Part shown: positions 13,594 through 47,243 of the stretch, one piece after another
Layout of the letters: the number at the start of each line of letters is the position of its first letter
How positions within the stretch are numbered: position 1 is the stretch's first letter
Virus record (IMG/VR): IMGVR_UViG_3300040801_004428
Location: 1-64,000 of that record
DNA from: a virus
DNA length: 64,000 nucleotides
Reading direction: 5' to 3' (one strand)
The notes under the pieces: generated by a model
The model's input: the letters and a program-made list of their open reading frames with translations, nothing else
Told to the model about the DNA's origin: nothing
Databases searched by the model: none
Translations under genes and position numbers: made by a program

Positions 13594-14031
13594 TTATTCG
13601 GGATCTTCTTCCCAAGGGTCAGGAATATCCTCCGCTCGATACTCTGTAGGCGGTTCAATCCCTCTTTGTCGCATAAACTCCTCAACTTTCTCTGCCAAGC
13701 TGGCATTGTCAGCTTTCTTATCCATGAGTTCAGATTCATTGTCTGGATATTCTCCTTTGTTGATTTTTGACATTACTTCGACAACCCTAGAAGGAGCGAC
13801 AAAACCTTCTTCGATGTACACGGGGTTTTGTTTTTCAATGTAGATTAAAGCCGGGAATGCGCTAATTGAATAGCGTTTTTTCACCTCTTGGGATTTTGTC
13901 AACATTACGCGGATTCCCATTGCGTTAAGCAACGGTACCGTTTGAGAATGCATGCGTTTGCACCACGGGCATCCTTCAGTCATTACTACTACAACTGAGA
14001 ATTTTTTAGTCACGTCGGTTAGTTGGTCCAT
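13594..14031 (-). CDS. thioredoxin-fold protein (CPWC active site)
   Basis: ..FSVVVVMTEGCPWCKRM... ..AFPALIYIE.. has the Trx-like layout. The start is uncertain (ATG at 14031 chosen; 14058 also possible). It carries an acidic C-terminal extension. Confidence 0.7.
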   Translation of the reverse strand: MDQLTDVTKKFSVVVVMTEGCPWCKRMHSQTVPLLNAMGIRVMLTKSQEVKKRYSISAFPALIYIEKQNPVYIEEGFVAPSRVVEVMSKINKGEYPDNESELMDKKADNASLAEKVEEFMRQRGIEPPTEYRAEDIPDPWEEDPE

Positions 14032-14044
14032 ATTTCTTGCTGAT

Positions 14045-14707
14045 CTAGTTGGTTCCATTATACAACATCTCGAAGTCATACTGAGTGAAGACCATATTTT
14101 TTAATTGGTCTCTCACTTCTTGTTCTTGCTTACGGGCACGATTACACTGGCGGAGGTTTTTACCACCCTCGCAGATGGTCCTATCGTTGGTGTAACTAAT
14201 CAAGAAGTTTAGATCTCTATCGGAAAGATCTGTTCCAATGGTTGGCACCCCTGAAGGAGTATAATCACTCTGAACTTCATGCGTGTCGTCAAACAAAGGC
14301 CCGGGTTCCATAACCCCTACTTTTAACGTCTCCTCGAGTTTATCCATGGTAATACTTAACATCTCACAGACCTTCTCCTTCGGTACGTTTTTACTCGTCT
14401 GTTCGATAATCTTATAATAGAGGGTTTGCTCTGCTCGGGGAATTCTAATCGCGCGAGTTTTATCACGATAAAAATGCCCAATGTAAGCTACCACCCTCTG
14501 CCAGGCATAAGTAGACAGTTTCATCCCCTTATTGGGGTTATAATCATGCACCGCCACACAAGCAGCATACCAAGCCACTTGGGTTATATCATCCAAAGTG
14601 GCAGCATTCCCCGAATGCTTTTTAGCATACGCGCGCCTGGCAAGGGTCTCTACAACCCATTTTAACTTTAGCACATCTTTTTGTTGTTTTCTGGTAAGTT
14701 TTCTCAT
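14045..14707 (-). CDS. sigma-70 family RNA polymerase sigma factor
   Basis: Regions 2-3 are recognisable: ..LDDITQVAWYAACVAVHDYNPNKGMKLSTYAWQRVVAYIGHFYRDKTRAIRIPRAEQ.. . The C-terminal region is divergent. Start taken at the ATG at 14707, with AAGAGG upstream. Confidence 0.8.
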   Translation of the reverse strand: MRKLTRKQQKDVLKLKWVVETLARRAYAKKHSGNAATLDDITQVAWYAACVAVHDYNPNKGMKLSTYAWQRVVAYIGHFYRDKTRAIRIPRAEQTLYYKIIEQTSKNVPKEKVCEMLSITMDKLEETLKVGVMEPGPLFDDTHEVQSDYTPSGVPTIGTDLSDRDLNFLISYTNDRTICEGGKNLRQCNRARKQEQEVRDQLKNMVFTQYDFEMLYNGTN

Positions 14708-15518
14708 GACCTCTTTTGTTTGTAAAAATCCTAATACAGGCCTAACCTTAAAGGAATTCAATCTAAATACAATATCCCGCCAAAAGGCGATCAACCAATG
14801 CGTCCAGCTTCAACTTGAAGTGTCTACCTCCACCGAGCAGGGACAATCCGCCCAGCGGGCCACCGGAGATCCGGCAATAATCGAAGGAAGGTGGAAAGAC
14901 ATCGATGGTGTAGTAAACGATGTGTATAAATCAGAGCCAGAAAGCAGGCAAAAGATTCATTACAAACCATTTGATGACCGTCACGCCCATGATAGGATTG
15001 TTGAATCCTTCACAGAGCGGTTGGATTATGTATTCCAACGAGCGGCTGAACTTGACGGGGATGATAAAACTCGCGCAATGGAGATGATCTTTAGGGATAT
15101 TACCTCCGTCGTTAGAGCTCTTTACGGAGACATCTTCGACCTCCAAGAAAGGCTAGGCGAAGCCATGGTGAGATTAGATGCGTTGGAAGATTGGAACGGC
15201 GCGGCGTATAATGATGGGTTTGACCTACCCGGGCATGATATACCCCACCATGATCAGTATGACCCACATCCGCCGTATCCTCACTTCCATGGGCGTCATT
15301 TGATTCTAGATAGAGAACAGGATCTCCGCTATCATCAGGGTAGAATGACTTTGTATGATCCATTATACCAGAAATCCCCGGGAATGAAGCGCTACTTGGC
15401 AGCACAACAACAGGCGGGAGTTTCCAAGCCTGAGAATTCTCCCCATAGGGAAGAAAAAGGCTATAGATTTGACCAATCTAAGCTTAAGGGGGACGGCTCT
15501 TCACGTACACCAGTGTAG
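14706..15518 (+). CDS. hypothetical His/Pro/Tyr-rich protein (start uncertain)
   Basis: Long ORF. Its ATG at 14706 shares the tetranucleotide CATG with the divergent sigma start, and no good SD is present. The true start may be an internal GTG. Confidence 0.45.
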   Translation: MTSFVCKNPNTGLTLKEFNLNTISRQKAINQCVQLQLEVSTSTEQGQSAQRATGDPAIIEGRWKDIDGVVNDVYKSEPESRQKIHYKPFDDRHAHDRIVESFTERLDYVFQRAAELDGDDKTRAMEMIFRDITSVVRALYGDIFDLQERLGEAMVRLDALEDWNGAAYNDGFDLPGHDIPHHDQYDPHPPYPHFHGRHLILDREQDLRYHQGRMTLYDPLYQKSPGMKRYLAAQQQAGVSKPENSPHREEKGYRFDQSKLKGDGSSRTPV

Positions 15519-15777: not shown

Positions 15778-16443
15778 ATGATCAATCTCACCAAAGAAGC
15801 GATCTTCATCGGGGACTTACACGGTAACTTAGACGCGCTGGAGCAAATCCTAACAAGATATGAATCCCACCATAAAGTTTTTCTCGGTGATTTTTTCAAC
15901 GACAAAGCTGAACTTTGCACCGTGCCCGAAGTAGACAAAATTGTAGAAACAATCCACAACCTGCCCGATACCACCATTGTACACAGCAACCACAATCAAT
16001 TGGTGATTCAAGCCTTAGAGGCTAGAAAACCGCTGGATGTAAATGTGCGCGGGTGGAATATCACCCAGCAGTATATCAACACCTTAGGATTTTCACGCCA
16101 GGAGAGGCTAAAACACTGGTTGAGTTCACACCCCGTGTGGGAGGAATTCCGCACTGTTAATGGCCTAACAATTGCCGCAGCTCACGCGTATCCAAACACC
16201 GCGGCGGAAAAATACCGCAAGGGGAAGTACCTCACCGAGGAGCAAAAGTCCTGCGTGGGGATCAAAACCCCTCATAGGTGGTGGTCTAATAGGAATCTCA
16301 AAGGTGTGTTGTTAAACTGGGACGCCGCAGTTATCGGCCACTATGCACACATTTCTATTAAAGAACGGTTGGTTATTGCCGACCTGGGTGGTTATCAAAT
16401 CCCTGTGTGGGACCCACAAATGGGAAAAATCAAAGTGTTTTGA
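15778..16443 (+). CDS. calcineurin-like metallophosphoesterase (Ser/Thr phosphatase-like)
   Basis: Motifs IGDLHGN, FLGDFFND and HSNHN match the GDxHG / GDxxDR / GNHE pattern. Confidence 0.75.
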   Translation: MINLTKEAIFIGDLHGNLDALEQILTRYESHHKVFLGDFFNDKAELCTVPEVDKIVETIHNLPDTTIVHSNHNQLVIQALEARKPLDVNVRGWNITQQYINTLGFSRQERLKHWLSSHPVWEEFRTVNGLTIAAAHAYPNTAAEKYRKGKYLTEEQKSCVGIKTPHRWWSNRNLKGVLLNWDAAVIGHYAHISIKERLVIADLGGYQIPVWDPQMGKIKVF

Positions 16444-17074
16444 GTTCACGTTTGCCATTGGCAAATGCGACCCAGCGTACATACGCTTGGACAATTAGTG
16501 CTTCATGGTAAGCATCATCCAATGCATTATGTTTTGTACCTTCAAACTTAGGCAAAAGCTTAATCTCCTCTCTGGGGAGTGAACTTTTCGCTGTTCGAAC
16601 ACACCGGTTGCCCCAATACTTGGGAAGGCCAATCCCACCCAAGCCGGGTATAGCCTGTTTGCAGGCATACTCAACGCGGTCAATTAGCACCCGGTCAAAG
16701 CTGGGATCGTTTGCCCACATAGTTGTGTTGTATATACCAATCCCTGAGGTTATCTTTGAAAACCACGAGGTTAATTGGACCATCAAAGTCATCAAATCCC
16801 TGGAAGGTAGACCCTCAACCCAGGAGGTTAGATTCATTTGATCGTACCATTTCGCGGTGTCCGCATCCATTGGGTTTTGTGTTAATGCGTGGACCTTTCC
16901 TTCAAAGTAGAAGGCCATGTCTTTGCGTATGCGCAATTCAGACAGCATTCCCATTCTATCATACACCGCAAAGATTGGCACAATCCCGATTGAGTAAATC
17001 GGGCAGTCGTATGACCGGGTCCCGCCTGTTTCACAGTCAATTACGAAGCCGCAGTCACCAAGAAGCTCTTTCAT
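16430..17074 (-). CDS. DEDDh 3'-5' exonuclease (DnaQ/RNase T-like)
   Basis: Exo I VIDCETGG, Exo II WANDPSFD, Exo III HNALDDAYH. Confidence 0.7.
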   Translation of the reverse strand: MKELLGDCGFVIDCETGGTRSYDCPIYSIGIVPIFAVYDRMGMLSELRIRKDMAFYFEGKVHALTQNPMDADTAKWYDQMNLTSWVEGLPSRDLMTLMVQLTSWFSKITSGIGIYNTTMWANDPSFDRVLIDRVEYACKQAIPGLGGIGLPKYWGNRCVRTAKSSLPREEIKLLPKFEGTKHNALDDAYHEALIVQAYVRWVAFANGKRELKTL

Positions 17075-17874
17075 GGGTTATATCCACTAAGGTTTTTTTC
17101 TTCACGTATAGCATCGGCAACCAAGTTTAGTTTGCGCAAATCGCGAGATGCCGAACGTCGGTCTTGTGCCAACACACCCCATTCTTGCGCCGCGCGGGTG
17201 AGGTAGTACGTTAGTTTGCAATACACCTCCGCGTCGTTAGCCAATCCGGGTTGGACCGCTTGGTCGGCGTGCTCTTCCGCGACTTCCAAGTAGGTTTGGT
17301 ATTTTCGACTTTCTTTGTAGTCTTCGCCGAAGATTGCCTCGTACATCCGCTCCTCTAGAGAGTTGGATTTACTAAGGTTGTGAAGCCGCACGGTGTCGTC
17401 ATTCACCTGGGTGACTAATCGCTCGCGGAGCTTATTCCACTGGGCGGATAGTTCCACTTCGTGAGTTTTACGATGCGCAATTGGGACGTCTAGTTTATTC
17501 GCTAACGTGCTCAGTGCGTTTGAGCAATACACCTGAAAGGTTGTGAACCCCACACGCGTGCTACCACCGCCGCGGTAGTCAAGCATGGTTAGGTAAGCCC
17601 CAATGGTTGCATTTTGAAAGCTTTCGATTACTTTCGCGTTTACGTATGCTACTGCACCGTTGTTGTAGTGAGCGATTTCTGGCTTTTCGATAAACCCCTC
17701 TAAGTGGAGAGGTTCAAAATACTTGAGCATCTCCTGATCGTTGAGAAACGAGTACGTGGGGGAAACAATAGATAGGATTTTCCCCTCATCGTTGTAGATG
17801 GCATCCTTAGGGATGGATAGCTCAGTTCCATCTTCTAATAGAATTTGACTAATCCGTCCACGTGATACTTTCAT
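17071..17874 (-). CDS. DUF932-like protein
   Basis: ..GGGSTRVGFTTFQVYCSNAL.. resembles the DUF932 ..R.vCsNg. core. Recognised by eye only. Confidence 0.4.
   Translation of the reverse strand: MKVSRGRISQILLEDGTELSIPKDAIYNDEGKILSIVSPTYSFLNDQEMLKYFEPLHLEGFIEKPEIAHYNNGAVAYVNAKVIESFQNATIGAYLTMLDYRGGGSTRVGFTTFQVYCSNALSTLANKLDVPIAHRKTHEVELSAQWNKLRERLVTQVNDDTVRLHNLSKSNSLEERMYEAIFGEDYKESRKYQTYLEVAEEHADQAVQPGLANDAEVYCKLTYYLTRAAQEWGVLAQDRRSASRDLRKLNLVADAIREEKNLSGYNP
17084..17115 (-). promoter_or_regulatory. TGn-N6-TG-A-tract upstream element (copy d)
   Basis: Minus strand reads GATGC-TATACG-TG-AAGAAAAAAA-CCTTAGTGG...ATG(17074). It lies inside the end of the upstream CDS. Confidence 0.5.
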
Positions 17875-20478: not shown

Positions 20479-20551
20479 TGCGAGTTACAGGAGTTGAACC
20501 TGTCTGAGCCCAATTATGAGTTGGGTGCCTTATCCGCTCGGCCAAACTCGC
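20479..20551 (-). tRNA. tRNA-Met (anticodon CAT; an Ile-lysidine type cannot be excluded)
   Basis: Folded by hand into a 73-nt cloverleaf: acceptor GCGAGTT/AACTCGC, anticodon stem CCCAA/TTGGG, loop CTCATAA, T-arm ACAGG-TTCAACT-CCTGT. No encoded CCA. Confidence 0.85.
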
Positions 20552-21009: not shown

Positions 21010-21038
21010 TTTACACCTCAATTAGGTTTTTTCTCCAA

Positions 21039-21111
21039 CGCCCCGTGTAGGATTCGAACCTACGACCCACGGTTTAGAAGACCGTTGCTCTATCCGCTGA
21101 GCTAACGAGGC
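21039..21111 (-). tRNA. tRNA-Arg (anticodon TCT)
   Basis: Hand-folded 73-nt cloverleaf: acceptor GCCTCGT/ACGGGGC (one G-T pair), D-stem GCTC/GAGC, anticodon stem ACGGT/ACCGT, loop CTTCTAA, T-arm GTAGG-TTCGAAT-CCTAC. Confidence 0.9.
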
Positions 21112-21121
21112 AGATGTGTTT

Positions 21122-22789: not shown

Positions 22790-23097
22790 TTTGAAGCTCC
22801 TTCTGTTAATCTAAGCACGGATTTTTTGTACATGGCGAGGAGTTCCTCCGTCAGGTCAGCAGCCTCTTCGGGTGTTAGCCGCTCCGCTGTTTTGTTATAA
22901 AGCTTATCCATGTAAGCCTTGTCTAGAGCGGCGCCCATGGTTGACAGGTCTCTCCCATTTTCCTGCAACCCAGTTTCTGGACTACATTCCATGAGAACCA
23001 ACCCATCGAGAGCTTCAATCGCTTGGCGTAGACCTTCAGCTACTTTGGTAGGACCCATTTCAATCGCTTCTTTGATAAATTTGTCTCTATCATACAT
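22729..23097 (-). CDS. hypothetical protein
   Basis: ATG at 23097 (MYDRDKFIKEAIE..). Its leader matches that of the CDS at 90. The 3' end overlaps the next gene by about 60 nt. Confidence 0.55.
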   Translation of the reverse strand: MYDRDKFIKEAIEMGPTKVAEGLRQAIEALDGLVLMECSPETGLQENGRDLSTMGAALDKAYMDKLYNKTAERLTPEEAADLTEELLAMYKKSVLRLTEGASKWLAIPQSRVMSTLGYHDVD

Positions 23098-23800
23098 AGT
23101 GTGGTACCTCGTTTGTTTTTTCAAACTCAATTAGGAGTTTTTCCACATAGGTGTCGAATCTCCTCTTGTCGTAGTATGCAGCAAGTGAGTGCTCAAACGC
23201 ACCGTTGGTCTCATTTTCAATTGCCTCCAACATTTTTTGCGCAACTTGGCGGATTTCAACCTGCGCGTGGGGAGAATTCCGCAAATTGCAAAAATGCATA
23301 AATGAGCGGAAATTAAACGAAACATCTAGAGTTATCATGGAATTATAACCTAGGTAGTACCGGCACGCTTCTTTAGCACGCTTACGGCCTAACTCCAACT
23401 CTGTGTTGTTAATACACTTGTGGTACTGTTCAACTCCCATTACGCCCGCGGTGGCTAGGACCATCTCCTCGTAGCCTTCAAAATCTGCAGGGGTGTAGAT
23501 GTAGTTGTCCTTGATTTCTTTGTACCGCGCGGATTCGCCATTAACCGAGACGCCAATCCTATGTTTTAGTAGATGTATATGGGTAGCCTGATCCACCTTG
23601 ATTAAGAATTGCAAGTATGATTTCTCAAACGGGGTGTGATGCCCATGTAGCATCAACATCCTCAAAAATGCTGGAATCCGCGCGCGTTTTTTCTCCGTTA
23701 GTTCTCGCGACGTGGATGTCCAACCACTACACGCGTGGGATTCATCCCCACCGGCATAGCGGATTAATTCAACATCCTGTGATCTTTTCTCGTACATCAT
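23090..23800 (-). CDS. thyX: FAD-dependent thymidylate synthase ThyX
   Basis: ThyX signature ..LLKHRIGVSVNGESARY.. (RHR..S....S.R type). Start taken at the ATG that overlaps the helicase stop (ATGA). Confidence 0.85.
   Translation of the reverse strand: MMYEKRSQDVELIRYAGGDESHACSGWTSTSRELTEKKRARIPAFLRMLMLHGHHTPFEKSYLQFLIKVDQATHIHLLKHRIGVSVNGESARYKEIKDNYIYTPADFEGYEEMVLATAGVMGVEQYHKCINNTELELGRKRAKEACRYYLGYNSMITLDVSFNFRSFMHFCNLRNSPHAQVEIRQVAQKMLEAIENETNGAFEHSLAAYYDKRRFDTYVEKLLIEFEKTNEVPHYV
23103..23150 (-). promoter_or_regulatory. A-tract leader element (copy n)
   Basis: Minus strand reads ..GGAAAAACTCCTAATTGAGTTTGAAAAAACAAACGAGGTACC.., inside the 3' end of thyX. Confidence 0.4.
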
Positions 23801-25413
23801 AGTGAGTATTCCTTGCTCAAAATTGCTTGGACCGCAGGTGTAAGGTCTTGACTCCTCAATTGAGGTTTCAACCCCATGAATCGCTGCGCATGTGGAGAGT
23901 TCCACCCATCGTGTGATTTACTGCTCGGTCCTAGGTCCATTTTACCATGGAAGTCAGCACACTGCGTACGCATTGCCTCGACGAATTTCTGCCTCGACAT
24001 GCATGTGGCCCCCGGATTGTTGTCCACCAACCATGCGCGGTACGTCTCGTATACTGTACGTACAGTGGGATTTTGATACGGATCGTTGGGGTCATACAAC
24101 TTGTCGGGGATAACATCCCAGAGGGAGTCAACAAACAGGGCGATGTTACTCGATTGGCCTGTAACCTCGAGTGCGAATGCATTAAAGGTTAGAGTGTCCT
24201 TTGCGTCTCGGAACACCCCGGAGGCTTCCTCCACTGAAGAGAATTGACTCAACAGGTAGCCAATAATCTGAGGAGTTTCTTCCTCAAGTTTGGTTCCCAT
24301 ATTAAAGTCTTTCTTCCCAGTGATGGGTGGTACCACGATGACTAAGGCCCTCCGGTTGAGTCCCGAATCAGTGGGTGGTAACACCGCAGTGTTTGAAGCC
24401 ATGATGATCATTGCCCTACAGCGGAATGAATACGGCGTGCGGGCATACGCCACCCGGCCGGTTATTTCATCCGCTGTCGCCATTTTGAGCAGAATGCCGC
24501 CATGTTTCGACACGACGAGGGGTTCTCTCTCATCGGGGAATACCACCAGTGAGGATGATCTAATCGGGTAGATTGAACTCGCGTCTGTTAGCTCCTTAAT
24601 TGTCAGGGTGCTGGTTCTGGTCTGCCCCGCAATGCTATTTAGACAATCAATGTATGTTGATTTCCCCGTTCCTCCTTGTGAGGAGTATAGATGCAAAATT
24701 GATGTCTGCTGCGATCTATGACGCCCTGACATTGATATCAGCGCCGCTGCGAGGAGTACTCGCTTGACTTCGGGCTTACCTCCGGAGAGGTTATCAATCA
24801 TTTGGAGGAAGTTAACTGGCGGGTTTTCCTCACTAGGTGGGACATAATCATGCTTGATTTTGGAAATCAGGTGCCAGTCCTTCTCGTGGGGGACTAGCTC
24901 CTTTGTGGAGAATACATACACTCCGTTATTGAACGGAATGTAACCTTTACTAAGGTCGTATTTCTCCCTGATTGATTTCTCCGGGTTGGGGTAGAACTTC
25001 CTAGCTCCGTTGTAACAGGCGATCTTAGTCACAAGGTGTTCTAATTGGCGGGAAGTTAGTGACTGTAGGTCGTCGAACGACTGGCCTTGTAACTGAGCGT
25101 GTAGGATACTTGCTTTTATTTTGAATTCATCGTATGGAACGTCTTCCCAAGTTCCATAAGCAGCATCAGAATCATCACCGGCATCAGAAGGATCCCTAAA
25201 GTTATAAACAGTAAACTCTTTCCCGTCTCTAGGAAAGCATCCAGCCTGGGCGATTGTGACTGCGGTTCTCGTGATAGGGGAGAATTGTTCCCCGTCTGCC
25301 GGTTTGAGTTCTCCGAGTTGAGAGGGATTAAGCTCAATTCCTCCTCCTCCTTCTCCTCGATTTCGGTAGTCTCCTGTAATGTTGGCAAGAATATCTGATA
25401 GTCCAGACTCCAT
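23797..25413 (-). CDS. SF3 (D5/P4-type) replicative helicase
   Basis: Walker A SSQGGTGKST, Walker B LVVFPDERE, motif C IIMASNTA. GAGGA lies 7 nt before the ATG. Confidence 0.75.
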   Translation of the reverse strand: MESGLSDILANITGDYRNRGEGGGGIELNPSQLGELKPADGEQFSPITRTAVTIAQAGCFPRDGKEFTVYNFRDPSDAGDDSDAAYGTWEDVPYDEFKIKASILHAQLQGQSFDDLQSLTSRQLEHLVTKIACYNGARKFYPNPEKSIREKYDLSKGYIPFNNGVYVFSTKELVPHEKDWHLISKIKHDYVPPSEENPPVNFLQMIDNLSGGKPEVKRVLLAAALISMSGRHRSQQTSILHLYSSQGGTGKSTYIDCLNSIAGQTRTSTLTIKELTDASSIYPIRSSSLVVFPDEREPLVVSKHGGILLKMATADEITGRVAYARTPYSFRCRAMIIMASNTAVLPPTDSGLNRRALVIVVPPITGKKDFNMGTKLEEETPQIIGYLLSQFSSVEEASGVFRDAKDTLTFNAFALEVTGQSSNIALFVDSLWDVIPDKLYDPNDPYQNPTVRTVYETYRAWLVDNNPGATCMSRQKFVEAMRTQCADFHGKMDLGPSSKSHDGWNSPHAQRFMGLKPQLRSQDLTPAVQAILSKEYSL

Positions 25414-25652
25414 AGGTAGTCCTCAGTAAGGGTTAGTGAGCTAATTTGACCTTCTTGTTCCATGACAACTAATGTGGTCGGCATTTCGTTGTTTGGGAGA
25501 TTTGTTTGTAGGATATGCTCAACGTATGGGCCTTTTGTAAAGCCCGTTGGTTGGAGCATAATTGCCGCGTCGTCGATTAGAATAAATTCCATAGGTACGT
25601 CTTTCATTAGATACACGTATACCACTGGAATTGCAATTTGTTCTTCAATCAT
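25116..25652 (-). CDS. hypothetical protein; 3' 300 nt overlaps the helicase gene out of frame
   Basis: The ATG at 25652 overlaps the stop of the ThyA-like gene (ATGA). The first ~80 codons fill the 25414..25652 gap. The rest is an alternative frame of the helicase N-terminus (acidic run plus a hydrophobic segment). Confidence 0.4.
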   Translation of the reverse strand: MIEEQIAIPVVYVYLMKDVPMEFILIDDAAIMLQPTGFTKGPYVEHILQTNLPNNEMPTTLVVMEQEGQISSLTLTEDYLWSLDYQIFLPTLQETTEIEEKEEEELSLIPLNSENSNRQTGNNSPLSREPQSQSPRLDAFLETGKSLLFITLGILLMPVMILMLLMELGKTFHTMNSK

Positions 25653-26491
25653 GTTATGGGTTTGAACCTCTCTTTTGGTAGGTCTAGTTTGTAATAGTTC
25701 CCCACGTTGAAGTGCCTCGGCTTGAGCGCGAGCATATCTTCAAAGCTTTGCAATGGGGGAATTACCACATTCTCGTGGGATGGGTATTCGAGTGTTGGAA
25801 ACTCCTTAGATTGTATTACCTTGTGTGCGTACTTCGAATGCGGTTGGTACACATGTGAATTGGAAACAGTCCAGTGTAGCTTCCAAGGTTTTACTTCTAA
25901 CAATTTAGAAAACATTTGAAGCAATGCCCAATAGCGGATTACATCACCCGGGAATCCCACGATCAAGTCTTGCGACCTACCGACTACGTGCAACTCCAAC
26001 CAATTGCTCTTAGTCGCGTGGAATATCAACGTCGGGTGGCAAGGCGGGACGCGGTCGATACCCAAATCCGATGGGCCCGGCTGATTGGTGGGATCAAACA
26101 GTTGGATGACTGCCCGTCGGGTGAGTATATTCTCTTTGAGTAGTACATAAGTATTGTAGAGCTGATCTACCTGTCCAGCGAAGTTTCGAAAGCTCGCTCC
26201 GTAGGTGTTTGGCAACGACCCGTCGCGATTAGCCCAAGTTTGCCACAAATACGAGGCTTTACCCAACTTATTTACATTCGTATTCCCATTGAGGTCCCAC
26301 ATCAATTCTTGCAAATAATGTTTGACCGGATGGCGACGGTCCGTCAAATATGGGGCCGGTTCCCCATACTCCCAAACAGTAACGGTTGGTTGAAACGTAG
26401 CTTTTGTAGAAGCACCTCTGGAGAAGATAGTCGTGCCTGTAAGGAGAGCCCTAGTAAGCATCTCCTTATATATTTCCATTATTGGTTGCAT
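25649..26491 (-). CDS. ThyA-fold pyrimidine C5 (hydroxy)methylase, predicted dCMP-specific
   Basis: ThyA landmarks ELMWDLNGNTN, RRAVIQLFDP, PPCH (catalytic Cys), GRSQDLIVGFPGD and SNSHVY. Asp replaces the Asn177 equivalent. Confidence 0.7.
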   Translation of the reverse strand: MQPIMEIYKEMLTRALLTGTTIFSRGASTKATFQPTVTVWEYGEPAPYLTDRRHPVKHYLQELMWDLNGNTNVNKLGKASYLWQTWANRDGSLPNTYGASFRNFAGQVDQLYNTYVLLKENILTRRAVIQLFDPTNQPGPSDLGIDRVPPCHPTLIFHATKSNWLELHVVGRSQDLIVGFPGDVIRYWALLQMFSKLLEVKPWKLHWTVSNSHVYQPHSKYAHKVIQSKEFPTLEYPSHENVVIPPLQSFEDMLALKPRHFNVGNYYKLDLPKERFKPIT

Positions 26492-26495
26492 ATTT

Positions 26496-26525
26496 CCTCC
26501 TTAGTTTTTTTCAATCACGTACAGC
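26496..26525 (-). promoter_or_regulatory. TGTACGTGA-A7 upstream element (copy c)
   Basis: Minus strand reads GC-TGTACG-TG-ATTGAAAAAAA-CTAAGGAGG...ATG(26491). Confidence 0.5.
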
Positions 26526-29291
26526 TTAGTAGGAGAACAACTCCTCCGGTTGTAGGGACTCAGATACAATTTGTCCCTCCCAACTAGGGGTTTTAATACT
26601 CCCTCCTTCTTTTGCAAATCGATCCATGATTTCAATAGATTCTGGAAATGCCAGCACGGTTGGTATTTCAAACACCAACCCTAGCGCTTCGATTAACATC
26701 GCCCATGAGAGTAAGTGCGCGACTGCTGCATTTTGAGCGACTTTATACGCATCAGATTTTGCCACCAACCAACCGTATTCATCATGGTAGGGGATCAAGA
26801 ACTTTGCGTCGAGACCCATATGGTTGTTGAAATAATCTGTGAGGGTAATCATTGTGTGCATAAAATCCGCACCGGATCCTTGAATAAAGGCGTTAAATCG
26901 CGATGTTAGTTCTGCATTTGGGCGAGGCAAGTATCTCGTCTGAATTGGCAGGGGTAGTCTAACCCCCAGCAATGGAGTTGCGGGCGTTGGATCTTCCATC
27001 AGGGATAGAACCCCATTAAAGAATTCAGTATGAGTTCCTGACTGCTCCTCGTAGTAGCTAGAACGCAGCTTCTTAGTCCCCCTCATGTATTGTAAGGTCT
27101 CTACAGCGGCAGATTTTGCAAGAGCTTGGTCTGGAATGTGTGCTGCCATTTCTTTCCAGATGGTTTTCGTGGCGGCGGTAACCCCACAGAAGTAGTTTAA
27201 CGCATAGTTGAGCTGCTTCCCGCTGTCACGAGAGTAGTTTGGTAGACCAATCAACGCTCCCAACTTCCGAGCGGTGTTACTATGCGCGTCGGTTTTGTCA
27301 TGTTTGTTACCTGCAAATTGCATGTAGCCAAACGGCGTTATGCCTAGCACTGGAATTGTTGCAAACTTTGAGGCAATTAGCGCAGCAATGAATGCCTCCT
27401 GTGCTGTTACGTCAAAACATACGATTCTCTGCTCTTCGGGTGGAGCAATAAGCATGAGTCGAACTTCATTCCCGATCTTCTTGTCATTTGGGCCCGGAGA
27501 TGGGACCGTTGATAAGACAGGTGATCCAGCCCGGCCTGTGATTGTTTGGTGCGGGACATGGTCGGTTACAATCTTTCCGTTGTAGATGATAGTTCCGTCA
27601 ATCCGGCCGCGCATCGAAGTCCAATAACAGACTTTAATTGCCAGGTCTAGTAGCTCCTGACCTTGTGCAATTTGAGACTTGATAGCCCCGGTCTCGAAGA
27701 ACTCAACGTAGGATTGGTTCAACACTCCTCCTACATTAGCACCAAGGTTCTTCATATGAGGGATTTTAATAACCTCACCTGTGTCATCAACAATGTGGTA
27801 CTTAACCTCCGAGTTGTATAACACCGGATAGTCTTTATACGTCAATCGGGCTAACACATGCGCGAGTTGTGTCTTCGCACCGTAGGCGTCTTTCTTATCT
27901 GCGGTGATATACCAACGGGGTTTACCATAAAGTTCGGGATACTGCGGTACTTTGTATGTCCGCTTGGCGATGATTGGTTTGCCCGTGCGTGGGCTTGGTT
28001 CTTTCTCCCACTTGCCGGGAGTTGCCGCGCACCGGATTTCGTAATTCTTCAGTTTGGTGTTCATTGACCAATCGAGTTGCGACAACCAAGGGTCTGATTC
28101 AGGATCAACGTCCCCACTGAGAAATGCTTTGTACACATTCTTTGCCTCGGCTTTGATGATTTCTTCGAATTGGTGGTTTGCTTCGTGGTAGAGTTTCTCA
28201 CATTTGTGATACCACTCAATGATGTTATCGTCCGCTTTGACTGAGTTGAACGATACTGCTAACATCCCATAGAGGGAGATCATATTGTCTTGCCCAATCT
28301 GCTCGAAGTACTTCATAAGCAAGATTTGGGTGAGTGGGATTAGATCCGCCGCGTCTTGTAGCGAGTATTTGATAATCTCCGCAAAGTGGTCTAACATCTC
28401 ATTGATGTTGCACTTCACGAAATATTCTCGCGTATCTTTAGCATCCTTAGTTCGATTGACCCTATCCGCCAGATGATGCTCTAACAATGAGATTAAGTCC
28501 CCCCGGCAGCCATGCTTAGGCTTGTTGGGGGATTTCATTTGGTTGGAGGTCATTCCCGAAACTTTCTGGTGAAGGGAGAAGGTATCAATGACGAGAATGT
28601 CACACTTGTCTTGGTAGAATTCCTCAGTGCGGATGACGTCAAATCTTGCGTTGTGGGCGATTAGGATCTTGACATGTGGTCCGATGGGTAGTAGTTTAGG
28701 CTGGTAGGGTTCATCAGGTTGGAACCATACCTCATGGAGGTGGATGTACAACTCACCGGTGGCAGTTGCGGCGGTTCCGATAATCGGTGTGTTTGCCATT
28801 GGAAATTCGGATCCCAAGACGTAGGTTTCAGTATCGTAGAAGAGTACTGATTCGGTGGGGTACTCCACTCGGATTGGAGAGCCTAATTTGTCAAGTTTGT
28901 ACCAACCTTCTCCGTCAAACTCATCGATGGAGTATGAGCCCTTGATTTTGTACTTCGGAGTTGGAGGTATCAACGTCGAGAGTAGGCGAATTCGTTTGAG
29001 GTTATCTTCTCCGATTAGTTTACGCGCGGCGGTGTTGGCCCGCTCGCGGAGAGTACTCCCTTGGGGGAGACCTTTAATGATGGTGTCAACCTTATCGATT
29101 AGACTATCAGAAAAAGGTTCTCCAGGCTCGGGTAGTACATCAGTACCAATTTGCTCATTCCATCGTTGCTTAGCATTAGCCACCATCGTCTTAGTAAATT
29201 CAGACATGGCGGGTGGCTCGTACTCGGGTGCAATAGCACGCAGCACTTTGGGGTCTACTGCTGGGTAGCCCATCAATGTTTTATTACTCAT
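26526..29291 (-). CDS. family A DNA polymerase with 3'-5' exonuclease domain
   Basis: Exo motifs FYDTETY and HNARFDV. Pol motif A FDVTAQEAFIAA, motif B RDSGKQLNYALNYFCG, motif C PYHDEYGW. Confidence 0.85.
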   Translation of the reverse strand: MSNKTLMGYPAVDPKVLRAIAPEYEPPAMSEFTKTMVANAKQRWNEQIGTDVLPEPGEPFSDSLIDKVDTIIKGLPQGSTLRERANTAARKLIGEDNLKRIRLLSTLIPPTPKYKIKGSYSIDEFDGEGWYKLDKLGSPIRVEYPTESVLFYDTETYVLGSEFPMANTPIIGTAATATGELYIHLHEVWFQPDEPYQPKLLPIGPHVKILIAHNARFDVIRTEEFYQDKCDILVIDTFSLHQKVSGMTSNQMKSPNKPKHGCRGDLISLLEHHLADRVNRTKDAKDTREYFVKCNINEMLDHFAEIIKYSLQDAADLIPLTQILLMKYFEQIGQDNMISLYGMLAVSFNSVKADDNIIEWYHKCEKLYHEANHQFEEIIKAEAKNVYKAFLSGDVDPESDPWLSQLDWSMNTKLKNYEIRCAATPGKWEKEPSPRTGKPIIAKRTYKVPQYPELYGKPRWYITADKKDAYGAKTQLAHVLARLTYKDYPVLYNSEVKYHIVDDTGEVIKIPHMKNLGANVGGVLNQSYVEFFETGAIKSQIAQGQELLDLAIKVCYWTSMRGRIDGTIIYNGKIVTDHVPHQTITGRAGSPVLSTVPSPGPNDKKIGNEVRLMLIAPPEEQRIVCFDVTAQEAFIAALIASKFATIPVLGITPFGYMQFAGNKHDKTDAHSNTARKLGALIGLPNYSRDSGKQLNYALNYFCGVTAATKTIWKEMAAHIPDQALAKSAAVETLQYMRGTKKLRSSYYEEQSGTHTEFFNGVLSLMEDPTPATPLLGVRLPLPIQTRYLPRPNAELTSRFNAFIQGSGADFMHTMITLTDYFNNHMGLDAKFLIPYHDEYGWLVAKSDAYKVAQNAAVAHLLSWAMLIEALGLVFEIPTVLAFPESIEIMDRFAKEGGSIKTPSWEGQIVSESLQPEELFSY

Positions 29292-34185: not shown

Positions 34186-35937
34186 TCACGTACAACATAG
34201 TGGCTCAAAGAACAGACCAGGATCTCCGGTTTCTTTATACCGGCTCTTGATCTGTTTTGCCATGCGAGCAGCTGAGTTTGGATTATCTTTAGTTGCTCGG
34301 CTGGGATGGCCGAGGTCAATTAGATGTTGTTTCAGCTGCTTGTCGTTAAACAAGCCGAGTTTACCAACCTCAATTAGTTGCTTAAAACTTGCGGCTATAT
34401 CGGACCCTTTGTAGTTGCGCCGCCAGTAGTTATACCACAGGGAGGTAATTCCCGCCTCTGCGGCTTGCTCTTTGTGAGGATCCGTCTGCCGTTTCTTAGT
34501 TTGAGCTTTCTTAGCCGGTGGGGTGTAATCATCCACTGGGAGGATTTCAACCGAGTTGATGGTTAGAGCCTGAAGTTCGGATCTATAATAGTTGCGCGTG
34601 TCATTGTAGCGATCATTCCATAGGTCGTGTTCTCCCCGGGTGGTTTCAATATCCCGTTCGACTTTGCCCTTATCGGATTTTGTAATCCGTTTGATTGATT
34701 GCTTCATAAGCCAGGGCAAATGTTCTGGATATGGCACAATTTTGGCCAGTTCCTCTTCGGGTAGGTCTGTAACCTGGGTCGAATGCTCTCGCGCGTATTT
34801 CAACAACAGAAGTTGGTGCAATTTAATTTGTGTGTCCGCGCGGCGGTTGTATGCAAATTTGCGCAAATAATCGAGGGTAGTTTCCACATAGTAGGTTAGG
34901 TAGTCTCCCTCATTTGTGAATTCAATTGGGCGTGAGGTCTTTGGATCATAGTATTTGAACTTTTCAACGGTGGTTTTGCGCAAGCCCGCGGTATAGAGTA
35001 AGGGTAAGACATCCTTTTCAGTTCTTCCCCGCTTAAGTTGAATCTTAATATGGATTCCAATCTTACCTGATGACAGGTCTTGAACGGATTTGATAGGCAC
35101 ATTGGTGGCCTTCTTCAACTTCTTGACCTTATCGGCCAAGTTTGTGCAGAATTTTGCAGCTGACACATTGGGCGGCAGCGATCGGATGTTGATTACAGAC
35201 CCGTTGGTGTTCCACTCACCGGTGACCACATACGACAATTCGTCTTTCTGCGCAATGCGCCCACCCGTCGGTGGAGTTGGTACCATGCGGTCGGCCGTCC
35301 GACCACGGAGAATTTCCAAAATTTGGTCTTTCAACTGCTGTGGTGTGCGCGCCATAGTTGTATGACTATAGCCAACCGCAATGCCGGTCATGTTCCACAG
35401 TAGGGATAGGGGTAACAGACTGGGTAGATACGTCGGTTCGTAACCTTGCCCGTCGTAGGTTGGCACCATTTGGAGTAATTCCTTATCGATGTAAGGTTTC
35501 ACCATTTGGAACAACAAGTCTGATCCACGGACCTCGGTGTATCGTTCTGCGGCTGGTGGATCCTCACTGATGAGTGCTACGTACTCGCTTCCTTCGGGCG
35601 CTGTGTACATCCACGGGCCATTACCATGCCCGGTGATCATTGGCGCGTGGGAGTTTGACCGATCTGCGAGGTAGCACACTGATCCGTATGAGCCACTATG
35701 TGGGTGGATAGCCATCACCTGGCCTACCAACTTTGCGGATTTCATCAACTTATTGATGTTCTGCGACAAGATTGTCCACAAAATGCGTCGGTAGACTTCC
35801 GATAGTCCGTCGTCCGATGATGGCAAGGCTCTCGACATGACAGAAATCGCATACTCAAAGTATGAATCCTGCATTTCTTTGATTAAAGGTGTGGTTACGA
35901 TCTCACTCGCCTTTCCTATCGTCTGGCGGTTCGTCAT
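34186..35937 (-). CDS. type II topoisomerase A-subunit homologue (GyrA/ParC/T4 gp52-like)
   Basis: ..EYAISVMSRALPSSDDGLSEVYRRILW.. , ..AIHPHSGSYG.. , ..AAERYTEVR.. (active-site Tyr context). Confidence 0.75.
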   Translation of the reverse strand: MTNRQTIGKASEIVTTPLIKEMQDSYFEYAISVMSRALPSSDDGLSEVYRRILWTILSQNINKLMKSAKLVGQVMAIHPHSGSYGSVCYLADRSNSHAPMITGHGNGPWMYTAPEGSEYVALISEDPPAAERYTEVRGSDLLFQMVKPYIDKELLQMVPTYDGQGYEPTYLPSLLPLSLLWNMTGIAVGYSHTTMARTPQQLKDQILEILRGRTADRMVPTPPTGGRIAQKDELSYVVTGEWNTNGSVINIRSLPPNVSAAKFCTNLADKVKKLKKATNVPIKSVQDLSSGKIGIHIKIQLKRGRTEKDVLPLLYTAGLRKTTVEKFKYYDPKTSRPIEFTNEGDYLTYYVETTLDYLRKFAYNRRADTQIKLHQLLLLKYAREHSTQVTDLPEEELAKIVPYPEHLPWLMKQSIKRITKSDKGKVERDIETTRGEHDLWNDRYNDTRNYYRSELQALTINSVEILPVDDYTPPAKKAQTKKRQTDPHKEQAAEAGITSLWYNYWRRNYKGSDIAASFKQLIEVGKLGLFNDKQLKQHLIDLGHPSRATKDNPNSAARMAKQIKSRYKETGDPGLFFEPLCCT

Positions 35938-39370: not shown

Positions 39371-39863
39371 ACTAGGTGGATGGTGGTCTGATCGGTTGAC
39401 GGATGCCAATGGAGTAATTTGGAAAGCGTTATTAGGTATCAAAGTGGAACAACCAACATCGGAGGTATTTACCCCCACAATGTACGACACTATTAGTGAA
39501 TACCAATCACTGCACAATGACGGTGTCAGACTACAAGACACAGACTACCACCCGAAAGAAATCCAAGAAGCGATTTTCTTCATCATGGAAGAACTCCACG
39601 AAGCAGCACAAGAACTGCCCGATAATCGCAAACCATGGAAAGATGCCTTAGAAGGCTGGTCCGACTGGTTTGAAACCAACGAACAAGCATTCATGGAAGA
39701 AATGATCGACGTGATGTTTATGATCTATAGACTATTCCTAATGATGGGTTGGACCCCTGAACAGGTCAACCAAGCATTTGAGAACAAGCTCAATAAGAAC
39801 ATGAAACGACCCGATCACCGCTTTGTTGCACGTGAATTAGGGGGTAATACTCTTAAACAATAG
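39351..39863 (+). CDS. mazG: MazG-like all-alpha NTP pyrophosphohydrolase
   Basis: ..FFIMEELHEAAQEL.. (E-E-x-x-E) and ..FMEEMIDVMFM.. (E-x-x-D), then ..KLNKNMKR.. . TTG start with GGAGGA 8 nt upstream (alternative ATG at 39363). Confidence 0.65.
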   Translation: MIYRMIELGGWWSDRLTDANGVIWKALLGIKVEQPTSEVFTPTMYDTISEYQSLHNDGVRLQDTDYHPKEIQEAIFFIMEELHEAAQELPDNRKPWKDALEGWSDWFETNEQAFMEEMIDVMFMIYRLFLMMGWTPEQVNQAFENKLNKNMKRPDHRFVARELGGNTLKQ

Positions 39864-47203: not shown

Positions 47204-47212
47204 AATTAAGAT

Positions 47213-47243
47213 CTCCAATTAGATTTTTTCATGCATGCCATTG
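47213..47243 (-). promoter_or_regulatory. TGn-N6-TG-A6 upstream element (copy s)
   Basis: Minus strand reads CAATGG-CATGCA-TG-AAAAAA-TCTAATTGGAG...ATG(47203). Confidence 0.45.

What the first reader, a model, noticed from the sequence alone, without database searches (positions are those of the whole stretch)
25649..26491. ThyA-fold enzyme with Asp at the Asn177 base-specificity position, encoded alongside a separate ThyX: predicted dCMP C5-(hydroxy)methylase and modified cytosine
The 280-aa product lines up with E. coli ThyA landmarks without gaps in the core: ELMWDLNGNTN (ELLWFLQGDTN), RRAVIQLFDP (RRIIVSAWNV), catalytic PPCH (APCH, Cys146), GRSQDLIVGFPGDV (QRSCDVFLGLPFNI) and SNSHVY (GDTHLY). 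In the R-S-x-D-x7-N segment, the Asn that reads the uracil O4/N3 edge is Asp here. That substitution marks cytosine-specific members of the family: T4 gp42 dCMP hydroxymethylase has Asp179, and ThyA N177D switches preference to dCMP. dTMP synthesis is already covered by a canonical ThyX at 23090..23800, so a redundant thymidylate synthase is unlikely. The gene is translationally coupled (ATGA overlaps) into the helicase operon and sits just downstream of the DNA polymerase gene. I predict 5-hydroxymethyl- or 5-methyl-dCMP synthesis, and possibly further hypermodification of virion DNA.
Basis: partly seen in the sequence, partly recalled or inferred. Interest (0 to 1): 0.85.

Follow-up and report, generated by a model that had tools for sequence, protein, structure and literature searches.

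The report
Phage enzyme predicted to methylate dCMP
An uncultured cyanophage carries a thymidylate-synthase look-alike whose active site is set up for cytosine rather than uracil, so it most likely makes 5-methyl-dCMP for phage DNA; this is a new example of an already known viral trick, not a new kind of system.

Summary
ORF 25649..26491(-) encodes a 280-aa ThyA-fold protein (Pfam PF00303, E=5e-37; AlphaFold pLDDT 92.7; Foldseek TM 0.84 to E. coli ThyA). All catalytic and folate-binding residues are intact, but Asp183 replaces E. coli Asn177. The Asp is kept in every member of its 24-sequence clade. A ThyX gene lies 1.8 kb downstream.

The cytosine-specific reading is supported, and I refine it. 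Published diagnostic residues argue for reductive methylation (5-methyl-dCMP + dihydrofolate), as in phage XP12:
- Val, not Asp/Glu, three residues before the catalytic Cys
- Trp83 retained
- Asp169 retained
- a ThyA-type C-terminal tail present

T4-type hydroxymethylation and RB69-type 5-hydroxylation do not fit. No glycosyltransferase, dioxygenase, deaminase or DHFR was found in the window, so hypermodification has no support.

A thymidylate-kinase-like gene and a MazG-like NTP pyrophosphatase gene, 13 kb away, could complete a dCTP → 5m-dCTP pathway.

Asp177 ThyA homologues are an established, experimentally validated marker of cytosine-modifying phages. This is therefore a new member of a known kind. 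It sits in a rare, uncharacterised clade of pol-gamma-type cyanophages, and cultured S-TIM5 has a similar enzyme. Interest is moderate to low.

The parts
25649..26491 (-). ThyA-fold enzyme, 280 aa; predicted folate-dependent dCMP C5-methyltransferase (5-methyl-dCMP synthase)
   Evidence: PF00303 E=4.9e-37. AF2 pLDDT 92.7. Foldseek top 50 PDB hits are all ThyA, TMq up to 0.84. Diagnostic residues.
25943..25945 (-). Codon GAT = Asp183, at the E. coli Asn177 base-specificity position
   Evidence: Gap-free RSxD-x7-(N/D) alignment. Invariant in clade alignment A1. Codon read.
26039..26050 (-). Codons for V148-P-P-C151: catalytic Cys (E. coli C146), with Val at the Cys-3 position (E. coli L143 / T4 D145)
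   Evidence: Rule taken from PMC6400193 and PMC13326640.
25649..25846 (-). Codons for the 65-residue segment after the HVY motif, including the ThyA-like C-terminal tail (...RFKPIT)
   Evidence: Tail length after Y209: query 65, E. coli 55, XP12 61, T4 gp42 28, RB69 gp48 12.
26496..26502 (-). Shine-Dalgarno AAGGAGG, 4 nt upstream of the ATG
   Evidence: Read directly from the sequence.
23090..23800 (-). ThyX, flavin-dependent thymidylate synthase (dUMP to dTMP); its start overlaps the helicase stop (ATGA)
   Evidence: PF02511 4.3e-32. TIGR02170 99.4 bits, above the 87.9 cutoff. Aligns to T. maritima ThyX with the motifs kept, except KHR for RHR.
26526..29291 (-). Family A DNA polymerase with a pol-gamma-like exonuclease domain, immediately upstream in the same orientation
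   Evidence: PF18136 5e-19 and PF00476 3e-13. 31% identity to the S-TIM5 polymerase.
23797..25413 (-). D5/DUF5906-type primase-helicase
   Evidence: The order PolA, ThyA-like, helicase is conserved in L007, L008 and L009.
25116..25652 (-). Small ORF whose start overlaps the ThyA-like stop (ATGA). Function unknown. Its 3' part overlaps the helicase ORF by 298 nt.
   Evidence: The N-terminal part is conserved in L007 (42% identity, E=3e-11).
40347..40964 (+). Thymidylate-kinase-family P-loop kinase; candidate dNMP kinase for 5m-dCMP (the role is inferred)
   Evidence: phrog_761 4e-5. Family profile's best PDB match is TMPK 2yof, E=0.0034, with GPDRVGKST and CDR motifs. AF2 pLDDT 84.7. Foldseek top hit is human TMPK, E=1.9e-6, TM 0.56.
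39351..39863 (+). MazG-like all-alpha NTP pyrophosphohydrolase; candidate dCTPase (the role is inferred and the evidence is weak)
   Evidence: phrog_12184 1.1e-6. PRA-PH 0.0026, below cutoff. ExxE...ExxD motif. JGI names it 'NTP pyrophosphatase'. No detectable similarity to T4 gp56.

Best explanation
The gene encodes a homodimeric, methylene-tetrahydrofolate-dependent pyrimidine C5-methylase of the ThyA family that takes dCMP instead of dUMP.

Proposed mechanism:
1. Cys151 attacks C6 of dCMP.
2. Asp183, in place of Asn177, reads and protonates the N3/N4 edge of cytosine.
3. The C5 carbanion captures the folate methylene.
4. The active site is sealed as in ThyA, by Val at Cys-3 supporting Trp86 and by the C-terminal tail closing over the folate. 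The exocyclic methylene is therefore reduced by hydride from C6 of the folate, giving 5-methyl-dCMP and dihydrofolate.

The gene is expressed with the replication genes (PolA, this gene, small ORF, primase-helicase, ThyX). A phage thymidylate-kinase-like enzyme would phosphorylate the product, and host NDP kinase would finish it to 5m-dCTP. A MazG-like pyrophosphatase may remove competing dCTP. The phage DNA would then carry 5-methylcytosine in place of some or all cytosine and escape host restriction. dTMP is made separately by ThyX.

Shown here: the fold, the intact catalytic set, Asp at position 177, the methylase-type signature, and the operon context. Inferred: the substrate, the product, the roles of the partner enzymes, and the extent of replacement in DNA.
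For: Fold and catalytic residues:
- PF00303 match; AF2 pLDDT 92.7; Foldseek top 50 are all ThyA.
- E58, W80, W83, Y94, R126, R127, C146, H147, R166, S167, D169, H207 and Y209 are all conserved.

Cytosine specificity:
- Asp is at position 177 in the query and in all 24 clade members.
- Gln165, the partner of Asn177, is replaced by Gly/Ala/Ser.
- The protein scores far below all ThyA equivalog cutoffs, for example 96.7 against 327 bits.
- The literature shows that N177D/N229D converts ThyA into a dCMP methylase, and that Asp177 tracks cytosine-modified virome contigs.
- XP12 and 5 of 7 metaviromic Asp177 enzymes made 5mdC in vivo.

Methyl rather than hydroxymethyl or hydroxyl:
- All three verified hydroxylating enzymes (T4 gp42, SPO1 gp29, RB69 gp48) have Asp/Glu at Cys-3.
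- All verified methylating enzymes (E. coli ThyA, XP12, PaMx74) have a non-acidic residue there plus a 55-61-residue tail.
- The query has Val, Trp83, Asp169 and a 65-residue tail.
- T4 D145N is inactive, and the tail seals the ThyA active site for hydride transfer.
- D169N marks the 5-hydroxy-dCMP synthases.

Context:
- A separate ThyX passes its equivalog cutoff.
- The position between PolA and the helicase is conserved in three related contigs.
- A TMPK-like kinase and a MazG-like NTPase are present.
- C-containing palindromes are not avoided; the only strongly depleted 6-mer is the A/T-only TTTAAA (weak evidence).
Against: - No biochemical or DNA-composition data exist for this phage or for any member of its clade.
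- The verified 5mdCMP synthases are only about 27% identical to the query. They fall outside its clade and differ at position 147 (Pro against His) and at Cys-3 (Asn against Val).
- The Cys-3 rule is a published correlation backed by one mutagenesis study, not a proven classifier.
- XP12 and PaMx74 pair their enzyme with a DHFR and a dCMP deaminase. Neither was found in this 64-kb window, so recycling of dihydrofolate is unexplained. About 54 kb of the probable 118.6-kb contig was not seen.
- The clade has Phe176 replaced by Gly, and Ser/Thr before Tyr94, with unknown effects on folate geometry.
- The dCTPase assignment is weak, and the ORF shows no similarity to T4 gp56.
- The NJ tree has no bootstrap support.
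Confidence: 0.6

Rival explanations
1. It is a T4-type dCMP hydroxymethylase. The same first steps occur, but a water molecule adds to the exocyclic methylene to give 5-hydroxymethyl-dCMP and THF, perhaps followed by glycosylation or another hypermodification of the DNA.
For: Asp177 is shared with T4 gp42. A hydroxyl-bearing Ser/Thr precedes Tyr94 across the clade; this is the sequence position of E. coli Val93, which the T4 paper equates structurally with the water-binding Ser94. The absence of a DHFR in the window would fit a THF-producing enzyme. The phage's other folate enzyme, ThyX, also produces no DHF.
Against: The water-activating Asp/Glu three residues before the Cys is Val here, and T4 D145N is inactive. 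Trp83 is retained, whereas T4 has Val. A full ThyA-like C-terminal tail is present, whereas T4 gp42 lacks it. T4 gp42 is a much weaker match (BLASTP E=2e-5) than E. coli ThyA (5e-22) and is absent from the top 50 Foldseek PDB hits. No glycosyltransferase or other transferase was found in the window.
Confidence: 0.15
2. It is still a working thymidylate synthase (dUMP to dTMP), redundant with ThyX or used under different conditions, and the Asp is tolerated.
For: The overall architecture is closest to genuine ThyA, including His147, Trp80/83, Asp169 and the tail. Databases annotate it, and the S-TIM5 homologue, as thymidylate synthase.
Against: Asn177 is the determinant of uracil recognition, and N177D/N229D mutants switch to dCMP (literature cited). 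The Asp is conserved across a whole clade, together with loss of Gln165. The protein is far below every ThyA equivalog cutoff. The phage already has an equivalog-level ThyX in the same operon.
Confidence: 0.1
3. It is a flavin-dependent 5-hydroxy-dCMP synthase of the RB69 gp48 / DLP3 gp80 type, feeding O-glycosylated 5-hydroxycytosine.
For: It shares Asp177 and the ThyA fold.
Against: The diagnostic D169N substitution is absent, because the query has Asp. Cys-3 is Val, not Glu. Trp80 and the tail are retained, whereas RB69 gp48 lacks both. No sugar-nucleotide or glycosyltransferase genes were found.
Confidence: 0.02
4. It is a C5-modifying enzyme with a different substrate or product from any characterised member, for example a ribonucleotide, a different one-carbon outcome, or dual dCMP/dUMP activity.
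For: The clade is uncharacterised and is at most about 30% identical to any assayed enzyme. It carries clade-specific changes in the folate pocket (F176G, C168Q, D205N). Two of seven Asp177 enzymes tested in the preprint did not give 5mdC.
Against: The 3'-OH ligands H207/Y209 and all four phosphate-binding arginines are conserved as in dNMP-using members. The gene sits in a DNA replication operon.
Confidence: 0.1

Closest known systems
Xanthomonas phage XP12 (and Pseudomonas phage PaMx74) deoxycytidylate 5-methyltransferase, a ThyA homologue that makes 5-methyl-dCMP
   Same: ThyA fold. Asp at position 177, Asp169 kept, a non-acidic residue at Cys-3, and a long ThyA-type C-terminal tail ending in a hydrophobic residue pair. 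Encoded among replication and nucleotide-metabolism genes.
   Different: Only about 27% identical and not in the same clade. XP12 has Pro147, Asn at Cys-3 and Phe83, whereas the query has His147, Val and Trp83, which is closer to true ThyA. XP12 and PaMx74 pair the enzyme with a dCMP-family deaminase (a route to dTTP), a DHFR and a HAD hydrolase. This phage instead has ThyX, and no deaminase or DHFR was found in the window.
Engineered ThyA N177D (E. coli) / N229D (L. casei) dCMP methylases
   Same: An essentially complete ThyA active site, including His147, Trp80/83, Asp169 and the tail, with only the specificity residue changed to Asp. The query looks like a natural version of this.
   Different: The natural protein has further changes: Q165G, C168Q, F176G, D205N, and a 6-residue longer loop before the catalytic Cys. 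It is only 24% identical to E. coli ThyA.
Cyanophage S-TIM5 gp076, annotated 'thymidylate synthase'
   Same: It is the best structural match among viral proteins (E=2.8e-21, TM 0.82) and is 30% identical. It has Asp177, His147, a non-acidic Cys-3 (Cys) and the C-terminal tail. It lies beside replication genes in a cyanomyovirus with the same pol-gamma-like polymerase.
   Different: S-TIM5 has Leu at position 83, carries a dCMP deaminase, and has no annotated ThyX in the 142 kb inspected. Its enzyme and DNA have not been tested for cytosine modification in any paper I could search.
Bacteriophage T4 gp42 dCMP hydroxymethylase
   Same: ThyA superfamily. Asp at the specificity position (T4 Asp179). 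Located next to the DNA polymerase gene.
   Different: T4 has Asp145 at Cys-3, Val in place of Trp83, Thr147 and no C-terminal tail. The query has none of these.

Membership tests
ThyA / dCMP hydroxymethylase superfamily (Pfam PF00303) | Profile match above the curated cutoff over the whole domain | tested here: met
   127.9 bits against a cutoff of 24.3, residues 7-266; phrog_160 4.6e-45.
ThyA / dCMP hydroxymethylase superfamily (Pfam PF00303) | ThyA fold | tested here: met
   AF2 pLDDT 92.7, pTM 0.92. Foldseek TMq 0.84 to E. coli ThyA, E about 1e-19.
ThyA / dCMP hydroxymethylase superfamily (Pfam PF00303) | Catalytic Cys146 plus Glu58, Tyr94, Arg166, Ser167, Arg126'/127', His207 and Tyr209 | tested here: met
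   All are present in the query.
Canonical thymidylate synthase ThyA (dUMP to dTMP) | Asn at position 177, reading O4/N3 of uracil, oriented by Gln165 | tested here: not met
   Asp183 and Gly at position 165.
Canonical thymidylate synthase ThyA (dUMP to dTMP) | Score above the NCBIfam equivalog cutoffs | tested here: not met
   Best is 96.7 bits against a cutoff of 327; TIGR03284 scores 66.5 against 108.35.
Phage dCMP 5-methyltransferase (XP12 type) | Asp at 177 together with Asp169 retained | tested here: met
Phage dCMP 5-methyltransferase (XP12 type) | Non-acidic residue at Cys-3 and a ThyA-type C-terminal tail, giving a sealed site for hydride transfer | tested here: met
   Val; 65-residue tail ending ...RFKPIT. 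Rule.
Phage dCMP 5-methyltransferase (XP12 type) | Close sequence relationship to a verified enzyme | tested here: not met
   27% identity to XP12 over 184 residues. XP12 lies outside the query's clade in the NJ tree.
Phage dCMP 5-methyltransferase (XP12 type) | Linked dCMP-family deaminase and DHFR | tested here: not met
   Present next to the XP12 and PaMx74 genes. No deaminase motif or Pfam hit and no DHFR in the 64-kb window. The rest of the genome was not seen.
Phage dCMP 5-methyltransferase (XP12 type) | Formation of 5m-dCMP + DHF from dCMP + CH2-THF; 5mC in virion DNA | not testable with these tools
   Needs an enzyme assay or LC-MS.
T4-type dCMP hydroxymethylase | Asp/Glu three residues before the catalytic Cys (water activation) | tested here: not met
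   Val148. Signature from PMC6400193.
T4-type dCMP hydroxymethylase | No C-terminal tail; Trp83 replaced by a small residue | tested here: not met
   Tail of 65 residues, against 28 in T4; Trp retained.
5-hydroxy-dCMP synthase (RB69 gp48 type) | Asn at position 169 (D169N) with Glu at 143 | tested here: not met
   Asp175 and Val148.
ThyX (the neighbouring gene 23090..23800) | Score above the TIGR02170 equivalog cutoff; RHRxxS...S.RY and R...AQ.EI motifs | tested here: met
   99.4 against 87.9 bits. The motifs align to T. maritima ThyX, with Lys replacing the first Arg.

The most novel reading that the evidence does not exclude
Pol-gamma-type cyanomyoviruses, meaning this uncultured lineage and the ocean-wide S-TIM5 group, replace all cytosine in their DNA with 5-methylcytosine made before replication by a distinct, ThyA-like (His147/Trp83) clade of dCMP methylases. 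In this phage, dTMP would come from ThyX rather than from the 5m-dCTP deaminase route used by XP12. That would be the first fully C5-methylated cyanophage genomes, and it would bear on restriction evasion in cyanobacteria and on biases in marine virome sequencing. An alternative is that the clade's unusual folate pocket (F176G, Ser/Thr before Tyr94, no DHFR nearby) gives a product other than methyl.
Probability: 0.3. Interest if true: 0.55.

Novelty: new member of a known kind. Interest (0 to 1): 0.35.

Why it matters
If the prediction holds, this phage builds 5-methylcytosine into its DNA at the nucleotide level. That would blunt many host restriction systems, and probably some other DNA-targeting defences.

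It would extend pre-replicative cytosine methylation from Xanthomonas and Pseudomonas siphoviruses to a cyanophage lineage related to the abundant marine S-TIM5 group. It would also show a different way of balancing the pyrimidine pools, with ThyX in place of a 5mC-nucleotide deaminase plus DHFR.

There are two practical consequences. The clade offers a more ThyA-like natural dCMP methylase for enzymology. And S-TIM5, which is in culture, could be tested directly.

The principle of reading position 177 to predict cytosine modification is already established and experimentally validated, so the finding adds an example rather than a concept.

Tried and rejected
Searches for relatives and context that gave little:
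- Near-identical DNA search of 8 kb against sequenced phages: no match.
- IMG/VR scans with the protein and with a clade alignment: no relatives.
- The single metagenome scan returned one partial locus.
- Attempts to retrieve the probable 118.6-kb source contig, in order to look beyond the window for DHFR, deaminase or transferases, failed because the gene calls did not match exactly.
- Contexts of more distant clade members (P0006, P0060, P0094) were short and unannotated.
- The 62-kb contig carrying a homologue of the kinase showed no ThyA-like gene within 10 kb.

Partner-gene tests that gave little:
- The MazG-like ORF showed no similarity to the T4 gp56 dCTPase and no PDB sequence match.
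- Single-sequence PDB searches of the kinase-like ORF were not significant. Only the family profile and the structure model pointed to thymidylate kinases.

Ideas rejected:
- 5-hydroxy-dCMP synthase, because D169 is not Asn.
- Inactive pseudo-enzyme, because every catalytic residue is intact.
- The idea that a ThyA-like gene next to the polymerase is a shared trait of S-TIM5 and S-CBWM1. It is not next to the polymerase there, although S-TIM5 has one elsewhere.

Technical caveats:
- In the 154-sequence alignment the column for position 143 slipped for T4 and RB69. I replaced it with the gap-independent definition 'three residues before the catalytic Cys'.
- Palindrome-avoidance statistics are only suggestive.
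Full report
**1. Observation**

The minus-strand ORF 25649..26491 encodes 280 aa. A consensus AAGGAGG lies four bases before the ATG. The protein matches Pfam Thymidylat_synt over nearly its whole length (E=4.9e-37) and PHROG 160 'thymidylate synthase' (4.6e-45). Its best PDB sequence hits are all thymidylate synthases.

An AlphaFold2 model built on a 72-sequence alignment is confident (pLDDT 92.7, pTM 0.92). Its 50 best Foldseek matches in the PDB are all genuine ThyA enzymes (TMq up to 0.84). T4 dCMP hydroxymethylase is not among them.

Aligned to E. coli ThyA, whose sequence I verified as identical to PDB 1aob, the query keeps Glu58, Trp80, Trp83, Tyr94, Arg126/127, Cys146, His147, Arg166, Ser167, Asp169, His207 and Tyr209. 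It has Asp (residue 183, codon GAT at 25945..25943) where E. coli has Asn177. The R-S-x-D-x7-(N/D) segment aligns without gaps in more than 150 sequences, so the placement is not in doubt.

The substitution is not an accident. It is present in independent metagenomic homologues at 65%, 42%, 32% and 30% identity and in all 24 members of the query's neighbour-joining clade. It co-occurs with loss of Gln165, the residue that orients Asn177 in ThyA. The protein is far below every NCBIfam ThyA equivalog cutoff.

**2. Surroundings**

The gene lies in a minus-strand replication operon in this order:
- a family A polymerase with a pol-gamma-like exonuclease domain (26526..29291)
- the ThyA-like gene
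- a small ORF whose ATG overlaps the ThyA-like TGA (ATGA at 25652..25649)
- a D5/DUF5906 primase-helicase (23797..25413)
- ThyX, again with an ATGA overlap (start at 23800)

ThyX passes the TIGR02170 equivalog cutoff. It aligns with T. maritima ThyX through all signature motifs, with Lys for the first Arg of RHR.

The order PolA, ThyA-like, (small ORF), helicase recurs in three related metagenomic contigs whose polymerase identity falls from 80% to 29%. The enzyme is therefore a stable part of this lineage's replication module.

The polymerase and portal place the phage as a distant relative (25-31% identity) of the cyanomyoviruses S-TIM5 and S-CBWM1. There is no close DNA or protein relative among sequenced phages or in IMG/VR. 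Two 100%-identical proteins in the large database come from a 118,605-bp JGI contig, which is probably the source.

Elsewhere in the window are:
- class I RNR subunits, a thioredoxin-like protein and a sigma factor
- a GyrA-like protein
- a thymidylate-kinase-family P-loop kinase at 40347..40964
- a MazG-like NTP pyrophosphatase at 39351..39863

No deaminase, DHFR, glycosyltransferase, DNA methyltransferase or dioxygenase was detected.

**3. Which chemistry?**

The literature supplies explicit diagnostic residues.

- **Position 177.** Asn specifies dUMP and Asp specifies dCMP. N177D/N229D mutants become dCMP methylases. Asp177 is the most discriminating position between cytosine-modified and unmodified virome contigs (PMC8670742).
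- **Cys-3 (E. coli Leu143, T4 Asp145).** A hydrophobic residue supports Trp83 and excludes water. An Asp or Glu activates the water that makes the hydroxymethyl group, and T4 D145N is inactive. T4 also replaces Trp83 with Val and lacks the C-terminal tail that seals the ThyA site for hydride transfer (PMC6400193; PMC13326640).
- **Position 169.** D169N marks the recently discovered flavin-dependent 5-hydroxy-dCMP synthases.

I fetched the verified enzymes and aligned them. 'Tail' is the number of residues after the residue equivalent to Tyr209.

| Enzyme | Product | Cys-3 | 83 | 169 | 177 | Tail |
|---|---|---|---|---|---|---|
| T4 gp42 | 5hm-dCMP | Asp | Val | Asp | Asp | 28 |
| SPO1 gp29 | 5hm-dUMP | Asp | Phe | Asp | Asn | 157 (unrelated extension) |
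| RB69 gp48 | 5ho-dCMP | Glu | Ile | Asn | Asp | 12 |
| E. coli ThyA | dTMP | Leu | Trp | Asp | Asn | 55 |
| XP12 | 5m-dCMP | Asn | Phe | Asp | Asp | 61 |
| PaMx74 | 5m-dCMP | Asn | Phe | Asp | Asp | 61 |
| Query | predicted | Val | Trp | Asp | Asp | 65 |

The query's tail ends ...RFKPIT, compared with ...KAPVAI in E. coli and ...KPEVIE in XP12.

The query therefore has the cytosine-specificity residue on an otherwise methylase-type (sealed, hydride-transfer) active site. It is in effect a natural version of the engineered N177D dCMP methylase.

Among the 150 nearest representatives in a 1.84-billion-protein library, 57 have Asp177. In the 154-sequence alignment that adds the reference enzymes, 59 of 60 Asp177 sequences have a non-acidic residue at the position-143 column, with a median tail of 58 residues. 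When Cys-3 is read directly from each sequence, the only two with an acidic residue are the T4 and RB69 references.

XP12's enzyme and five of seven metaviromic Asp177 homologues have been shown to make 5mdC in vivo (bioRxiv 2024.12.05.627091).

**4. Most likely mechanism**

The enzyme converts dCMP plus CH2-THF into 5-methyl-dCMP plus DHF. The thymidylate-kinase-like enzyme and host NDP kinase would convert the product to 5m-dCTP. The MazG-like enzyme may deplete dCTP. ThyX supplies dTMP independently. The phage polymerase then incorporates 5mC.

The fold, the residues and the operon context are shown here. The substrate, the product, the partner roles and the degree of replacement are inferred.

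One weak, independent hint comes from site frequencies. C-containing 4-bp palindromes are not avoided (ratios 0.81-1.23). The only markedly depleted 6-bp palindrome is the A/T-only TTTAAA, seen 2 times against 12 expected, which a cytosine modification could not protect.

**5. Weak points**

- No clade member has been assayed.
- The verified methylases are only about 27% identical, lie outside the clade, and differ at positions 147 and Cys-3.
- XP12 and PaMx74 have an adjacent DHFR and deaminase, which this window lacks. DHF recycling is therefore unexplained unless the genes lie in the unseen ~54 kb or the host supplies the activity.
- The clade has F176G, and Ser/Thr before Tyr94, in the folate and water region.
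- The dCTPase assignment is weak.
- The tree is NJ without support values.

**6. Comparison and novelty**

The closest functional analogues are the XP12/PaMx74 dCMP methyltransferases and the engineered N177D ThyA.

The closest natural relative with a name is S-TIM5 gp076. It is the best viral structural match, is 30% identical, and has Asp177, His147, Cys at Cys-3 and the tail. It is annotated simply as thymidylate synthase. I found no paper that tests S-TIM5 DNA for modified cytosine.

Using Asp177 to predict cytosine-modifying ThyA homologues is established practice, and there is experimental validation. This is therefore a new member of a known kind. Its modest points of interest are the cyanophage lineage, the very ThyA-like active site, and the pairing with ThyX instead of a deaminase plus DHFR.

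**7. Verdict**

I refine it to a methylase rather than a hydroxymethylase. Hypermodification is unsupported.

My confidence is about 0.85 that the enzyme is cytosine-specific and about 0.6 that the product is 5-methyl-dCMP. Interest is 0.35.

Noticed in passing
L018:31748-32584 (+) (Cyanophage S-TIM5 NC_019516, gp076): The cultured cyanophage S-TIM5 encodes a 'thymidylate synthase' with Asp at position 177, His147, Cys at Cys-3 and a C-terminal tail, so it too is probably a dCMP methylase. S-TIM5 also has a dCMP deaminase (gp144) and no annotated ThyX in the 142 kb inspected. No searchable paper tests its DNA for 5mC. This is a directly testable prediction in an available isolate.
   Followed up: partly
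window 25116..25652 (-): The 178-aa ORF coupled by ATGA to the ThyA-like gene overlaps the primase-helicase ORF (start 25413) by 298 nt in another frame. Its N-terminal ~45 residues are conserved in a related contig (L007, 42% identity), while the helicase N-terminus is also conserved (L008). This is either a true overlap or a shorter real gene. It has no family match.
   Followed up: partly
window 23590..23610 region of ThyX (23090..23800, -): The ThyX signature RHR is KHR here, and there is a one-residue insertion before the S.RY motif. The protein still passes the TIGR02170 equivalog cutoff.
   Followed up: partly
window 48898..50805 (-) and 11366..12448 (-): The class I ribonucleotide reductase large subunit carries a C-terminal glutaredoxin domain (residues 564-615). 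It is encoded about 36 kb away from the small subunit. A thioredoxin-like gene lies at 13594..14079.
   Followed up: no
window 34186..35937 (-): A GyrA/ParC-like topoisomerase subunit (PF00521, 5e-43) is present, with no matching B subunit identified in the window. S-CBWM1 has a 'DNA topoisomerase II' near its polymerase.
   Followed up: no
window 14045..14794 (-): A phage-encoded sigma-70 region 2 protein. A related contig (L015) shows the same thioredoxin and sigma-factor neighbourhood next to the terminase.
   Followed up: no
window 46673..47218 (-): A second small P-loop protein (AAA_28, 2.7e-11), possibly another nucleotide or nucleoside kinase. It was not analysed further.
   Followed up: no
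window, whole: TTTAAA (an A/T-only palindrome) occurs 2 times against 12 expected, making it the most depleted 6-bp palindrome. C-containing 4-bp palindromes are near expectation. The statistic is marginal given 64 tests.
   Followed up: partly
window 20479..20551 (-) and 21038..21112 (-): Two tRNA genes, tRNA-Met(CAT) and tRNA-Arg(TCT), lie downstream of the replication operon.
   Followed up: no
L007:699-1412 (+): The closest related contig has an extra 237-aa gene inserted between the polymerase and the ThyA-like gene. It has no counterpart in the window and no Pfam hit.
   Followed up: no
window 16430..17874 (-): An Rv2179c-like 3'-5' exoribonuclease domain protein and a DUF932 protein are adjacent to each other. 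Their function in this phage is unknown.
   Followed up: no
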